Source of the DNA: Escherichia coli
GTDB taxonomy: Bacteria > Pseudomonadota > Gammaproteobacteria > Enterobacterales > Enterobacteriaceae
DNA length: 64,000 nt
Assembly: GCF_024502345.1 (NCBI RefSeq)
Contig: NZ_JALDNN010000001.1
Strand: one strand, 5' to 3'
Made by a program: the position numbers and the translations under genes. Below, piece by piece: positions 19,488 to 20,979 of the stretch. Within the stretch, counting starts at the first letter, position 1. Each line of letters opens with the position of its first letter. The notes beneath the pieces were generated by a model that saw nothing but the letters and a program-made list of their open reading frames with translations, was not told where the DNA came from and searched no databases.

Positions 19488-20171
19488 CTACAAGGTTCGA
19501 CAAAGGCACCAGACCTGGACAGTCGCCGCACCATTGCGTAAAAGCAACTGCGCAATCTCTGCGACGGTACTTCCGGTGGTAACGACATCATCCACAATCA
19601 CCATATGGCGACCTTGCACGGGCAATTCAAGACGAAAGGCATTTTTCAGGTTGCGCTTGCGTAGCCGGGCACTGAGAAAATGCTGGGTCGCAGTGGCCCG
19701 TGTTCGTGTGACGGCTTCGCTATCCCATCGGCAGTGCAACCAGCGTGATAACGGCTGACACAGCAAATCGCTCTGATTAAATCCCCGACGCCAGTGACGC
19801 CGCTGCCATAACGGAATGCTGATGATGCGATCCGGCAATTGCAACCCGGTGGTGCGACGAGCGTATAAGACCTCCAACAGTAACAGACGTGACAGGGCGC
19901 TGGCGATTTCGCTGCGCCGGGAAAACTTAAGCTGGTGGATTAGCGGGCTTAACGGCGGCGCATAGTCGGCAACCGTGACCAGTCTTTGCCAGGGCGGTGG
20001 TTTTTGCAGGCAGCGACCGCAGGGAAGATGTGAGTGTGTGGCGGGTAATCCACATTGTGGGCATAACGTTTTATCTGTACGGGCGGCGCGTGAGCAGACC
20101 GAACAAATCCCCCAATGACCTAATGCCAGTGGCATTCGGCATAGCCAGCATAATCCTGGTACTGTTAGCAT
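19488..20171 (-). CDS. gntX: ComF-like phosphoribosyltransferase-domain protein (GntX/YhgH)
   Basis: 227 aa from MLTVPGLCWLC; N-terminal Cys-rich region and C-terminal PRTase fold; ORF track start at 20234 is an upstream extension that would overlap bioH. Confidence 0.85.
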   Translation of the reverse strand: MLTVPGLCWLCRMPLALGHWGICSVCSRAARTDKTLCPQCGLPATHSHLPCGRCLQKPPPWQRLVTVADYAPPLSPLIHQLKFSRRSEIASALSRLLLLEVLYARRTTGLQLPDRIISIPLWQRRHWRRGFNQSDLLCQPLSRWLHCRWDSEAVTRTRATATQHFLSARLRKRNLKNAFRLELPVQGRHMVIVDDVVTTGSTVAEIAQLLLRNGAATVQVWCLCRTL

Positions 20172-20208
20172 ATGTTCATCCTTGTAAGTCAAAAGAGAAC
20201 AATAGCGG

Positions 20209-20979
20209 ATGAATAACATCTGGTGGCAGACCAAAGGTCAGGGGAATGTTCATCTTGTGCTGCTGCACGGATGGGGACTGAATGCCGAAGTGTGGCGTTG
20301 CATTGACGAGGAACTGAGCTCGCATTTTACGCTGCACCTTGTTGACCTGCCCGGCTTCGGGCGTAGCCGGGGATTTGGTGCGATGTCACTTGCTGATATG
20401 GCCGAAGCCGTGCTGCGACAGGCACCTGATAAAGCCATTTGGTTAGGCTGGAGTCTGGGCGGGCTGGTGGCAAGCCAGATTGCGTTAACCCATCCCGAGC
20501 GTGTTCAGGCGCTGGTCACCGTGGCGTCGTCGCCGTGTTTCAGCGCTCGTGAAGAGTGGCCGGGGATCAAACCGGAGGTGTTGGCGGGATTTCAGCAGCA
20601 ACTCAGTGATGATTTTCAGCGTACGGTGGAACGGTTCCTTGCGTTACAAACCATGGGTACTGAAACGGCGCGTCAGGATGCGCGGGCGTTGAAGAAAACC
20701 GTTCTGGCGTTACCGATGCCGGAGGTTGACGTGCTCAATGGTGGGCTGGAAATCCTGAAAACGGTCGATCTCCGCCAGCCGCTGCAAAACGTACCCATGC
20801 CGTTTTTGCGACTGTATGGTTATCTCGACGGTCTGGTGCCGCGCAAAGTGGTGCCGATGCTGGATAAACTCTGGCCGCACAGCGAGTCGTATATCTTCGC
20901 CAAAGCGGCCCATGCGCCGTTTATTTCGCATCCGGTCGAGTTTTGTCACCTGCTGGTGGCGTTGAAGCAGAGGGTGTAG
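20209..20979 (+). CDS. bioH: pimeloyl-ACP methyl ester esterase (alpha/beta hydrolase)
   Basis: 256 aa; nucleophile motif GWSLGG. Confidence 0.93.

What the first reader, a model, noticed from the sequence alone, without database searches (positions are those of the whole stretch)
20171..20211. gntX and bioH start codons are divergent and only about 37 nt apart
Seen in sequence: taking the conserved MLTVPGLC start for gntX (20171, minus strand) and the bioH ATG at 20209, the two genes diverge from a 37-nt spacer, so each promoter must lie within the other gene's coding sequence. If the longer ORF-track start for gntX (20234) were used the genes would overlap head-to-head, which I consider less likely.
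Basis: seen in the sequence. Interest (0 to 1): 0.15.

Follow-up and report, generated by a model that had tools for sequence, protein, structure and literature searches.

The report
Divergent gntX–bioH genes with embedded promoters
The competence gene gntX and the biotin gene bioH really do start 37 bases apart on opposite strands, as already annotated in E. coli, so their promoters most likely sit inside each other's coding sequence; this is a known, fairly common bacterial arrangement.

Summary
The gntX ATG has its A at 20171 (minus strand) and the bioH ATG is at 20209-20211, leaving a 37-nt spacer (20172-20208). RefSeq annotates the same starts in E. coli, and the divergent adjacency is in the literature.

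The short gntX start is right:
- Homologues are 227 aa, and the NCBIfam profiles align from residue 1.
- The longer ORF is not conserved.

The spacer is 35-41 nt in 76 of 78 Enterobacteriaceae species. It consists of two back-to-back ribosome-binding regions, so there is no room for two promoters.

Synonymous sites are strongly constrained exactly where embedded promoters would lie:
- **gntX codons 1-3 and 8-11.** Read antisense, these give TAGCCA-N18-TGTTAGCAT, a good extended -10 promoter for bioH with a predicted start near 20178.
- **bioH codons 13-24.** This is a 36-nt near-invariant block with a -10-like CAAGAT, 64 bp downstream of a CRP-S-like half-site.
- **Positive control.** The same method picks up the published sigma-32 promoter for nfuA inside gntX.

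No transcription start-site data could be retrieved, so the promoter assignments are inferences. Overlapping divergent promoters are common in E. coli (136 of 388 divergent operons), so the finding is ordinary. Interest is low.

The parts
19488..20171 (-). gntX (comF-family 'DNA utilization protein'), 227 aa, start ATG with A at 20171
   Evidence: ORF and translation. NCBIfam NF008616 equivalog, 430 bits against a cutoff of 304, aligned 1-227/227. Homologues are 227 aa.
20209..20979 (+). bioH (pimeloyl-ACP methyl ester esterase), 256 aa. An in-frame TAG at 20203-20205 forbids an earlier start.
   Evidence: NCBIfam NF007674, 585 bits against a cutoff of 449, aligned 1-256/256.
20172..20208 (.). 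37-nt spacer made of two back-to-back translation-initiation regions. The gntX-proximal half is variable except for the SD. The bioH-proximal half (AAAAGAGAACAATAGCGG on the + strand) is highly conserved.
   Evidence: Spacer list for 78 species; column identities; SD statistics.
20178..20183 (-). gntX Shine-Dalgarno AAGGAT, 6 nt before the ATG
   Evidence: Sequence. A 5-6/6 match to AGGAGG at 4-7 nt spacing in 69 of 78 species.
20193..20199 (+). Weak bioH SD-like AAGAGAA, about 10 nt before the ATG
   Evidence: A 4/6 match at 10 nt spacing in 67 of 78 species. This fits the reported poor translation of E. coli bioH mRNA (PMC5438404).
20142..20147 (+). Predicted bioH -35 hexamer TAGCCA, antisense of gntX codons W9 (TGG) and L10 (CTA)
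   Evidence: L10 is the rare codon CTA in 78/78 species. TAGCCA is present in 78/78. It is part of the best sigma-70 PWM hit in 450 bp on either strand.
20163..20171 (+). Predicted bioH extended -10 TGTTAGCAT (TGn + TAGCAT), antisense of gntX codons M1, L2 (CTA) and T3 (ACA). Predicted bioH start is near 20178, giving a 31-nt leader.
   Evidence: L2 is CTA in 97% and TTA in the rest; T3 is ACA in 100% of Thr codons. TG is kept in 78/78 and TA[GA]CAT in 78/78. PWM score 8.6 with an 18-nt spacer. The same TA.CCA-N18-TA.CAT layout is seen in distant bioH-linked loci L082, L085 and L086. The -35 and TG are absent in bioH-less loci L088 and L090.
20245..20280 (-). 36-nt block of extreme synonymous constraint in bioH codons 13-24 (gntX-sense CAGTCCCCATCCGTGCAGCAGCACAAGATGAACATT). 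Proposed core or regulatory region of a gntX promoter.
   Evidence: Lowest synonymous diversity in bioH: 0.07 against a gene mean of 0.455, permutation P<5e-5. Among amino-acid-invariant codons, 0.117 against 0.508, Mann-Whitney p=1e-5. Non-preferred codons are fixed (L16 CTT 100%, G21 GGA 90%, N13 AAT 98%). Variant list.
20252..20257 (-). -10-like CAAGAT inside the block (antisense of bioH H15-L16-V17). It would give a gntX start near 20245-20247 and a leader of about 74 nt, antisense to the bioH start.
   Evidence: Invariant in 78/78 species. Kept as CAAGAT in L082 and L084 and as CAATAT in L086, but lost in L085. It has no good -35, so it would need an activator.
20306..20327 (-). CRP-S-like 22-mer AAATGCGAGCTCAGTTCCTCGT. 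The left half is a perfect AAATGCGA and the right half is poor. Its centre lies 71.5 bp upstream of the start predicted from CAAGAT.
   Evidence: The core matches 7/10. Such matches occur 4.6 times per kb, so it is not significant alone. The homologous position scores 9/10 in L084 and 8/10 in L086. The bioH-less loci L089 (9/10) and L088 (8/10) carry such sites about 86 bp before the gntX ATG.
20199..20204 (-). Alternative, spacer-located gntX -10 TATTGT (TAYTGT in most species), with -35-like CTGCCA at 20229-20224 (19-nt spacer). Predicted start near 20192.
   Evidence: PWM score 6.0. Conserved in the spacer alignment. The same bases also belong to the bioH leader and ribosome-binding region, so the reason for their conservation is ambiguous.
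19603..19631 (-). Sigma-32 promoter for nfuA inside gntX codons 181-190: CTTGAAT-N14-CGCCATAT. Used here as a positive control.
   Evidence: Sequence. L181 CTT, E182 GAA and H189 CAT are each 100% conserved; synonymous diversity is 0.138 against 0.466, p=2e-4. An internal RpoH promoter in yhgH/gntX is reported in PMC9104697. A ChIP position 555 nt into gntX is listed in PMC2996942.

Best explanation
gntX (first gene of gntX-nfuA, a ComF-family competence gene) and bioH are two genuine, non-overlapping, divergently transcribed genes. Their 37-nt spacer holds only their two ribosome-binding regions, so each gene's promoter is built into the first codons of the other gene.

For bioH, RNA polymerase most likely uses an extended -10 element, TGTTAGCAT, which is the reverse complement of gntX codons 1-3. 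The -35 element is TAGCCA, the reverse complement of gntX codons 9-10. Transcription would start near 20178.

For gntX, the control region lies in bioH codons 1-45. It includes a 36-nt near-invariant block (bioH codons 13-24) with a -10-like CAAGAT, and a CRP-S-like half-site 64 bp further upstream. This fits the published Sxy/CRP-S control of comF orthologues.

If these assignments are right, the two promoters face each other. The two mRNAs would carry complementary 5' ends of at least 15 nt and up to about 70 nt, covering both ribosome-binding sites, so each gene could interfere with the other.

Shown: the gene starts, the spacer length and its conservation, and the synonymous-site constraint. 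Inferred: the identity of the promoter elements, the start sites and any interference.
For: - **Starts and spacer:**
- **Spacer is two ribosome-binding regions:**
- **bioH promoter:** it is the best sigma-70 PWM hit in 450 bp on either strand (8.6; hits of 8 or more occur about 1.2 per kb per strand). Its three synonymous-site bases (T of -35, T of TG, T of -10) are invariant. The rare Leu codon CTA is fixed at L2 (97%) and L10 (100%) and ACA at T3 (100%), while codons 4-7 between the boxes vary freely.
- **Layout in distant loci:** it is kept in distant bioH-linked loci and missing in bioH-less ones.
- **gntX region:** bioH codons 13-24 have the lowest synonymous diversity of the gene (perm P<5e-5; p=1e-5 among invariant residues). 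Other invariant BioH motifs (GWSLGG, AAHAPF) show normal diversity.
- **CRP-S-type sites:** they occur upstream of gntX in distant relatives, at the homologous place inside bioH in L084 and L086. [quoted passage not shown]
- **Method control:** the known sigma-32 promoter inside gntX gives the same signature.
- **Generality:** 136 of 388 divergent E. coli operons have overlapping 5' ends (PMC4161252).
Against: - No transcription start-site data for either gene could be retrieved.
- The tool's stricter consensus scan finds no promoter here; the bioH candidate is 8/12 plus TG.
- The CRP-S-like site in the window is only 7/10, which is expected by chance, and its right half is poor in all 78 species.
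- CAAGAT has no recognisable -35 and is lost in one distant bioH-linked locus, L085.
- L084 does not fit the bioH -10 layout cleanly.
- The M-L start (TAGCAT or TAACAT in antisense) also occurs in two bioH-less loci, so part of the -10 conservation may be ancestral or linked to translation.
- The 78 species are related. Within-gene comparison controls for this only partly.
- My sigma-70 PWM used approximate published base frequencies recalled from memory.
Confidence: 0.7

Rival explanations
1. The main gntX promoter is proximal. Its -10 is TATTGT inside the spacer (20204-20199), its -35 is CTGCCA in bioH codons 6-7, and transcription starts near 20192 with a 21-nt leader. The constrained block in bioH codons 13-24 then serves another purpose. 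Only half of the gntX promoter would lie in bioH.
For: TAYTGT keeps T1, A2 and T6 in most of the 78 species. It is the best gntX-directed PWM hit that precedes the SD (6.0). It gives a normal leader length.
Against: The 19-nt spacer is long and the score is modest; hits of 6 or more occur about 5 per kb per strand. The same bases form the conserved bioH leader and ribosome-binding region, which alone could explain their conservation. The model leaves the much stronger constraint at bioH codons 13-24 unexplained.
Confidence: 0.25
2. gntX is transcribed mainly from a distant upstream promoter, through bioH in antisense. Candidates are read-through from rpnA or a sigma-S site deep in bioH. In that case no dedicated gntX promoter sits near the spacer.
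For: rpnA, gntX and nfuA are all on the minus strand. No intrinsic-terminator-like site lies on that strand between rpnA and gntX. A genomic SELEX study lists an RpoS-holoenzyme peak inside bioH, directed towards gntX (PMC5493296). From K-12 gene coordinates that I recall from memory, this peak lies roughly 340 nt before the gntX ATG.
Against: The published comparative analysis assigns comF its own promoter in Enterobacteriaceae. The localised promoter-sized block of synonymous constraint in bioH, and the CRP-S-type sites at conserved distances, are not predicted by simple read-through. The SELEX peak is at low resolution.
Confidence: 0.12
3. The synonymous constraint does not reflect promoters. 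It could reflect an RNA structure, a translation-initiation effect, or an antisense ORF (for example the 53-aa ORF at 20337-20176) that overlaps the bioH 5' end.
For: The block can form a small hairpin, CAUC..GUGC-UGCU-GCAC..GAUG. The in-register antisense frame is open across the block in all 78 species, and an ORF with a start codon covers it in 70 of 78. The first codons of genes are often constrained for translation.
Against: The folds are not more stable than shuffles (z -0.4 to -1.6 for the block), and there is no Rfam match. The block lies at codons 13-24, beyond the usual initiation window. The antisense frame in register with sense codons is open by default, and the constraint covers only 12 of its 53 codons. 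In gntX the constrained codons form two boxes separated by four freely varying codons, which is a promoter-like pattern rather than a structural or coding one.
Confidence: 0.12
4. gntX starts further upstream, at TTG 20234 or at the in-frame ATG 16 codons upstream of the annotated start (A at 20219). The two coding sequences would then overlap head to head.
For: The ORF is open to 20234 in the window. One metagenomic gene call of 243 aa exists (P0001).
Against: Homology stops at MLTVPGLC. There is an in-frame stop in the spacer in 17 of 78 species and no upstream start in 23 of 78. The conserved SD precedes the annotated ATG.
Confidence: 0.02

Closest known systems
Overlapping divergent operons of E. 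coli ('excludon'-type arrangement; Conway et al. 2014, PMC4161252; classic cases ilvY-ilvC and argECBH cited there)
   Same: Two divergent transcription units whose promoters are placed so that the 5' ends of the transcripts are complementary. The paper reports this for 136 of 388 divergent operons, with a mean overlap of 168 nt.
   Different: Here the overlap is forced by a 37-nt gap between start codons, so the promoter elements lie in coding sequence and share bases with codons. Whether gntX/bioH is among the 136 mapped cases could not be checked, because the supplementary tables are not held.
CRP-S (Sxy-dependent) competence promoters of gamma-proteobacteria (Cameron & Redfield 2006, PMC1635313)
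   Same: gntX is the comF orthologue, which the paper places in the CRP-S regulon with its own promoter in Enterobacteriaceae. A conserved AAATGCGA half-site lies upstream. E. coli CRP-S sites are described as low-affinity. Another member, hofM (comA), is reported to have a second site at -246, which in this window falls inside mrcA coding sequence.
   Different: The site in the window matches only 7/10 core positions, and its right half is degenerate.
E. coli bioA / bioBFCD divergent promoters with a shared BirA operator
   Same: Divergent biotin-gene promoters packed into a very short control region (described in PMC5438404).
   Different: bioH is not regulated by BirA or biotin, and no bio operator-like sequence was seen. 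The partner gene here is a competence gene, not a biotin gene.
Conserved bioH-comF(C) divergent neighbourhood (Akatsuka et al., as discussed by the Cronan laboratory in PMC5438404)
   Same: The same gene pair. The adjacency is used in the literature to recognise freestanding bioH genes in Serratia, Yersinia, Erwinia, Shewanella and others.
   Different: That work concerns gene neighbourhood only. In the passages I read, it does not treat the spacer length, the promoters or the synonymous constraint.

Membership tests
GntX / ComF family (NCBIfam NF008616, TIGR00201) | Full-length match above the curated cutoff, starting at residue 1 | tested here: met
   430 bits against a cutoff of 304, aligned 1-227/227. 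TIGR00201 scores 269 against 233.6.
GntX / ComF family (NCBIfam NF008616, TIGR00201) | N-terminal Cys-rich motif and C-terminal phosphoribosyltransferase motif (VDDVVTTG) | tested here: met
   C8, C11, C23, C26, C37, C40 and V193-G200 are invariant in 14 genera. Pfam PF00156 is recorded on the homologues.
BioH pimeloyl-ACP methyl ester esterase (NF007674, TIGR01738) | Full-length equivalog match above cutoff | tested here: met
   585 bits against 449, aligned 1-256/256. TIGR01738 scores 400 against 207.
BioH pimeloyl-ACP methyl ester esterase (NF007674, TIGR01738) | Alpha/beta-hydrolase motifs: HGWG oxyanion loop, GWSLGG nucleophile elbow, catalytic His | tested here: met
   HGWG is at residues 20-23 in 78/78 species. 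G80-W81-S82-L83-G84-G85 and H235 are invariant or nearly so (99-100%). The catalytic Asp was not examined.
Sigma-70 extended -10 promoter (for bioH) | TGn immediately upstream of a TAnnnT hexamer, a -35-like hexamer 16-18 bp upstream, placed upstream of the gene | tested here: met
   TAGCCA-N18-TGT-TAGCAT at 20142-20171, conserved in 78/78 species.
Sigma-70 extended -10 promoter (for bioH) | A primary transcript 5' end about 7 nt downstream of the -10 | not testable with these tools
   No start-site table containing this locus could be read.
CRP-S (Sxy-dependent CRP) promoter (for gntX) | 22-bp CRP site with C6 and G17 (TGCGA-N6-TCGCA) | tested here: inconclusive
   The window site at 20306-20327 has a perfect left half (AAATGCGA) but only 7/10 overall, which is the chance level. 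The homologous sites score 9/10 in L084 and 8/10 in L086.
CRP-S (Sxy-dependent CRP) promoter (for gntX) | Induction requires Sxy, CRP and cAMP | not testable with these tools
   This needs an experiment. The relevant E. coli regulon paper (Sinha et al. 2009) is not held.
Overlapping divergent operons / excludon | Mapped 5' ends of the two divergent transcripts overlap | not testable with these tools
   The overlap (20178 to 20192 or about 20246) is only predicted from candidate promoters.
Symmetric bidirectional promoter (one shared -10 region giving back-to-back divergent starts; Warman et al. 2021, recalled from memory) | The two -10 elements overlap on opposite strands, and the starts diverge from each other | tested here: not met
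   The candidate -10 elements are 28 to 80 bp apart (20166-20171 against 20199-20204 or 20252-20257). The predicted starts face each other.

The most novel reading that the evidence does not exclude
The compact head-to-head layout may be a conserved regulatory switch rather than mere gene packing. In this reading the 36-nt invariant block in bioH codons 13-24 is the core of a Sxy/CRP-S-dependent gntX promoter. Its roughly 74-nt leader is antisense to the bioH ribosome-binding site, and its polymerase must run through the bioH promoter, which itself is written over the gntX start codon. Inducing the competence gene would therefore shut down biotin-precursor esterase expression, and the reverse would also hold. 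The recurrent comF-biotin gene linkage (bioH here, bioB/bioF in L097) would then be functional.
Probability: 0.2. Interest if true: 0.4.

Novelty: already known. Interest (0 to 1): 0.17.

Why it matters
As an observation it matters little. The two starts and the 37-nt gap are the standard annotation, the bioH-comF neighbourhood is published, and promoters that overlap a divergent neighbour are common in E. coli.

The modest added value is twofold:
- **Practical.** Synonymous recoding or deletion of the first 10 or so codons of gntX, or the first 45 or so codons of bioH, is likely to disturb expression of the neighbouring gene. This is relevant to knock-out collections, recoded genomes and biotin-pathway engineering.
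- **Methodological.** Synonymous-site conservation across about 80 species pinpointed a literature-known internal sigma-32 promoter and two further candidate promoter regions. This gives precise, cheap predictions that existing start-site data could confirm.

Tried and rejected
- **Start-site tables.** I searched the supplementary tables of seven transcriptome papers for bioH, gntX, yhgH or the coordinates: PMC4782308, PMC10301672, PMC4681348, PMC7132871, PMC4161252, PMC3415461 and PMC6131387. Nothing was found: files were truncated, absent, or lacked the genes.
- **E. coli CRP-S site lists.** The supplement of Cameron & Redfield is not held, and Sinha et al. 2009 is not held.
- **Papers mentioning gntX or yhgH**. 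Only sigma-32, SELEX and neighbourhood mentions were relevant.
- **The tool's consensus promoter/terminator scan.** It finds no promoter between the genes at its 9/12 threshold.
- **Canonical CRP site.** No match of 7/10 or better near the spacer.
- **Other motifs in the bioH block.** I inspected the sequence by eye against the sigma-32, sigma-54 and sigma-E consensus sequences and the BirA operator (from my own knowledge of these motifs, no tool call). None fits.
- **Rfam.** No family matches.
- **RNA folding of both leaders and of the block.** Not significantly stable, except z=-2.4 for a 76-nt gntX leader, caused by a 7-nt inverted repeat that the spacer sequences show to be absent outside the Escherichia/Citrobacter/Salmonella group.
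- **Longer gntX ORF.** Rejected.
- **Antisense 53-aa ORF.** Considered unlikely.
- **Genome-wide distribution of divergent spacers.** Not computed; only a local sample of 7 pairs was used.
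Full report
**1. Observation**

On the + strand, positions 20169-20171 read CAT. This is the ATG of a minus-strand ORF that begins MLTVPGLCWLCR. Positions 20209-20211 are the ATG of a + strand ORF that begins [12 protein letters not shown]. The 37 bases between them are ATGTTCATCCTTGTAAGTCAAAAGAGAACAATAGCGG.

The two proteins are GntX and BioH:
- GntX matches NCBIfam NF008616 at 430 bits (cutoff 304), aligned 1-227 of 227.
- BioH matches NF007674 at 585 bits (cutoff 449), aligned 1-256 of 256.

RefSeq annotates the same starts and the same 37-nt gap in E. coli genomes. The region is present in 5,424 of 5,426 complete E. coli genomes. The 241 bases around the spacer are the same in the window and in two E. 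coli strains except for four substitutions, none of which touches the spacer or any element named below.

**2. Which gntX start?**

The ORF is open up to a TTG at 20234, but several lines of evidence favour the annotated ATG:
- Nearly all of the 120 best homologues are 227 aa and cover only 92% of the 248-aa version.
- M1, L2, T3, C8, W9, L10 and C11 are invariant in 14 genera.
- Among 78 Enterobacteriaceae species, 17 have an in-frame stop inside the spacer and 23 have no upstream alternative start.
- A 5-6/6 match to AGGAGG lies 4-7 nt before the annotated ATG in 69 of 78 species.

bioH cannot start earlier, because an in-frame TAG sits two codons upstream. The genes therefore do not overlap.

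**3. Is the tight spacing more than chance?**

I fetched 80 loci from different Enterobacteriaceae species and located both starts in 78 of them. The spacer is 35-41 nt in 76. One of the other two has 61 nt because of an insertion, and the window itself makes up the count.

Four much more distant loci (GntX 44-48% identical) keep bioH(-)/gntX(+)/nfuA(+), with called spacers of 28, 33, 39 and 82 nt. Eight other distant loci have lost bioH from this position.

In the 41.6 kb around the locus, the seven divergent gene pairs have gaps of 37, 186, 189, 227, 319, 378 and 611 nt. The divergent bioH-gntX/comFC adjacency is already used in the literature as a marker of freestanding bioH genes (PMC5438404).

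**4. Anatomy of the spacer**

Read in the gntX direction, the spacer has three parts:
- a conserved C[AC]G[TC]TA[TC]TGTTCTCTTT;
- a variable stretch;
- the gntX Shine-Dalgarno sequence, followed by 4-7 nt.

Read in the bioH direction, the conserved half is AAAGAGAACA[AG]TA..G just before the bioH ATG. It contains only a weak SD, a 4/6 match at 10 nt spacing in 67 of 78 species. This agrees with the report that E. coli bioH mRNA is poorly translated.

The spacer is therefore two ribosome-binding regions placed back to back.

**5. Synonymous-site constraint**

For 78 species I built codon alignments. For each codon I measured the diversity of synonymous codons among the sequences that carry the majority amino acid. 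The gene-wide means are 0.455 for bioH and 0.465 for gntX.

The lowest 8-codon window of bioH is codons 13-20, at 0.071. In 20,000 permutations the minimum window never reached this value.

Restricting the analysis to amino-acid-invariant residues removes the confound of protein conservation:

| Region | Diversity inside | Diversity elsewhere | Mann-Whitney p |
|---|---|---|---|
| bioH codons 13-24 | 0.117 | 0.508 | 1e-5 |
| gntX codons 1-14 | 0.119 | 0.466 | 6.5e-4 |
| gntX codons 180-197 | 0.138 | 0.466 | 2e-4 |

Other invariant BioH motifs (GWSLGG, AAHAPF) show normal diversity. The fixed codons include non-preferred ones: CTT at L16, GGA at G21 and AAT at N13 in bioH, and CTA at L2 and L10 in gntX. 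Selection for translational accuracy therefore does not explain the pattern.

**6. Positive control**

The third constrained region, gntX codons 180-197, contains CTTGAAT-N14-CGCCATAT (19631 to 19603, minus strand). This is a close match to the sigma-32 consensus. L181 CTT, E182 GAA and H189 CAT are each 100% conserved.

An internal RpoH promoter in yhgH (= gntX) is reported in the literature (PMC9104697, citing Nonaka 2006). A sigma-32 ChIP position is listed at 3543459. From K-12 gene coordinates that I recall from memory, this lies about 555 nt into gntX.

The method thus recovers a known promoter embedded in coding sequence.

**7. The bioH promoter**

The constrained gntX codons form two boxes separated by four freely varying codons (codons 4-7, diversity 0.47-0.71). 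In the bioH direction the sequence reads CATAGCCAGCA, then 12 variable nt, then CTGTTAGCAT.

This gives a -35 of TAGCCA (20142-20147), an 18-nt spacer, and an extended -10 of TGT+TAGCAT (20163-20171). The last three bases of the -10 are the complement of the gntX start codon.

With a position-weight matrix, this is the best sigma-70-type site on either strand of 20000-20450, scoring 8.6. Scores of 8 or more occur about 1.2 times per kb per strand in the window. I built the matrix from approximate published base frequencies recalled from memory.

All three promoter bases that fall on synonymous sites are invariant in 78/78 species: the T of TAGCCA, the T of TG, and the first T of TAGCAT.

Comparison with distant loci:
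- bioH-linked L082, L085 and L086 show TAGCCA or TATCCA, then N18, then TATCAT, TAACAT or TAGCAT.
- bioH-linked L084 fits poorly.
- bioH-less L088 and L090 lack the -35 and the TG, although they keep TA.CAT because they also begin Met-Leu.
- The other bioH-less loci have none of these elements.

The predicted start is near A20178, giving a 31-nt leader. I rate this assignment at about 0.65.

**8. The gntX promoter**

This part is less clear. There are three candidates.

- **(a) Distal promoter inside bioH.** The 36-nt block 20245-20280 reads, in the gntX direction, CAGTCCCCATCCGTGCAGCAGCACAAGATGAACATT. It contains one hexamer with A at position 2 and T at position 6, CAAGAT (20257-20252). This hexamer is invariant in 78/78 species, kept in L082 and L084, becomes CAATAT in L086, and is lost in L085. 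It has no good -35, so it would depend on an activator.
  Sixty-four bp upstream lies AAATGCGAGCTCAGTTCCTCGT (20327-20306). Its left half is a perfect CRP-S half-site. The whole core matches only 7/10, which is expected by chance at 4.6 per kb. At the homologous position, however, L084 has TGCGAGCTTAATCGCG (9/10; only 2 such matches occur in the whole 64-kb window) and L086 has 8/10. The bioH-less loci L089 (9/10) and L088 (8/10) carry such sites about 86 bp before the gntX ATG.
  The site centre would be at -71.5 relative to a start 7 nt after CAAGAT, which is a class I CRP position (established knowledge of CRP activation). Cameron & Redfield place comF in the CRP-S regulon with its own promoter in Enterobacteriaceae, and they describe E. 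coli CRP-S sites as low-affinity.
- **(b) Proximal promoter.** Its -10 is TATTGT in the spacer and its -35 is CTGCCA in bioH codons 6-7. It scores 6.0, has a 19-nt spacer, and would start near 20192.
- **(c) Read-through from upstream.** rpnA lies on the same strand, and no terminator-like site intervenes. An RpoS-holoenzyme SELEX peak is listed inside bioH, pointing to gntX.

I rate (a) at about 0.35-0.4, (b) at about 0.25 and (c) at about 0.12 as the main source. They are not mutually exclusive. In (a) and (b), at least the -35 and any activator site lie in bioH coding sequence.

**9. Consequence**

If the assignments hold, the two promoters face each other. bioH would start at about 20178 and run rightwards. 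gntX would start at about 20192, or about 20246, and run leftwards. The two leaders would then be complementary over 15 to about 70 nt, covering both ribosome-binding sites, and each polymerase would have to cross the other promoter. This could cause mutual interference.

It is the arrangement that Conway et al. found for 136 of 388 divergent E. coli operons. It is therefore a known kind. Interference at this locus is speculation.

**10. Alternatives for the constraint**

- There is no Rfam family.
- The block can form a small hairpin, but folding energies are not unusual (z -0.4 to -1.6).
- A 76-nt gntX leader has z=-2.4, owing to a 7-nt inverted repeat (TTCATCC at 20175-20181 and GGATGAA at 20207-20213). 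The spacer sequences show that this repeat is not kept outside the Escherichia/Citrobacter/Salmonella group.
- A 53-aa antisense ORF (20337-20176) is open in most species. It lies in the antisense frame that is in register with sense codons. By my own knowledge this frame is open by default, because its stop codons correspond to rare sense codons. Only 12 of its codons are constrained.

**11. What could not be done**

No start-site data for this locus could be read, despite seven attempts. The key Sxy regulon paper is not held. All promoter assignments are therefore inferences from sequence and comparative data.

**12. Verdict**

The arrangement belongs to a known and common class.

The specific promoter predictions and the strong synonymous constraint in bioH codons 13-24 are a small, testable addition. 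Interest is low, at about 0.17.

Noticed in passing
window 19603-19631 (minus strand), inside gntX codons 181-190: A near-consensus sigma-32 promoter, CTTGAAT-N14-CGCCATAT, for the downstream gene nfuA. Its codons are frozen at synonymous sites (CTT, GAA and CAT each 100% in 78 species). It matches published reports of an internal RpoH promoter in yhgH/gntX.
   Followed up: yes
window 20175-20181 and 20207-20213: A 7-nt inverted repeat, TTCATCC / GGATGAA, brackets the spacer. In a long gntX leader it would pair the gntX SD with the antisense of the bioH start. A 76-nt leader folds with z=-2.4. Judging from the spacer sequences, it is not conserved outside Escherichia, Citrobacter and Salmonella.
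   Followed up: partly
window 41962-42056 (mrcA-hofM spacer) and about 41792-41813: A second competence-regulon divergent pair is in the same window. The mrcA(-) and hofM(+) starts are 95 nt apart. The published second CRP-S site of comA/hofM at -246 would fall inside mrcA coding sequence, where there is a 7/10 CRP-S match. This is a precedent for CRP-S sites inside a neighbour's gene.
   Followed up: partly
whole window (tested on 19400-21050): The window is only 95-99% identical to 5,406 E. coli genomes; sampled records run 95.5-97.3%. The best hit is 98.9%, to a freshwater isolate from Galapagos. The source is probably a divergent Escherichia lineage rather than a typical E. coli. I did not pursue this.
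   Followed up: no
L097:373-2199 (also L096 and L082-L091): Gene context of gntX/comF varies in distant relatives. It is divergent from bioB-bioF (a biotin operon) with a 96-nt spacer in L097, fused behind a secretin gene (comE-like) in L096, and without any biotin gene in six other loci. The gntX-nfuA link is kept in most of them. The comF-biotin linkage recurs with different biotin genes.
   Followed up: partly
window 20176-20337 (minus strand): A 53-aa ORF antisense to the bioH 5' end, in register with the bioH codons. Some ORF with a start codon covers the constrained block in 70 of 78 species. This is probably the usual open antisense frame, but it was not excluded experimentally.
   Followed up: partly
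window 20980-21005: bioH and rpnA converge with only 26 nt between their stop codons. The scan found no intrinsic-terminator-like site on either strand there, so antisense read-through in both directions is possible.
   Followed up: partly
L015 (Citrobacter sp. MGH106), spacer upstream of position 2001: This is the only Enterobacteriaceae species in the set with a long spacer (61 nt). An insertion of about 24 nt lies between the conserved bioH-proximal half and the gntX SD. It is a natural test case for whether spacing matters.
   Followed up: no
window 20123-20135: A perfect 13-bp palindrome, ATGCCAGTGGCAT, lies in gntX codons 13-17, just upstream of the predicted bioH -35. It is created by a window-specific base (E. 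coli strains have ACGCC...) and is not conserved in other genera.
   Followed up: partly
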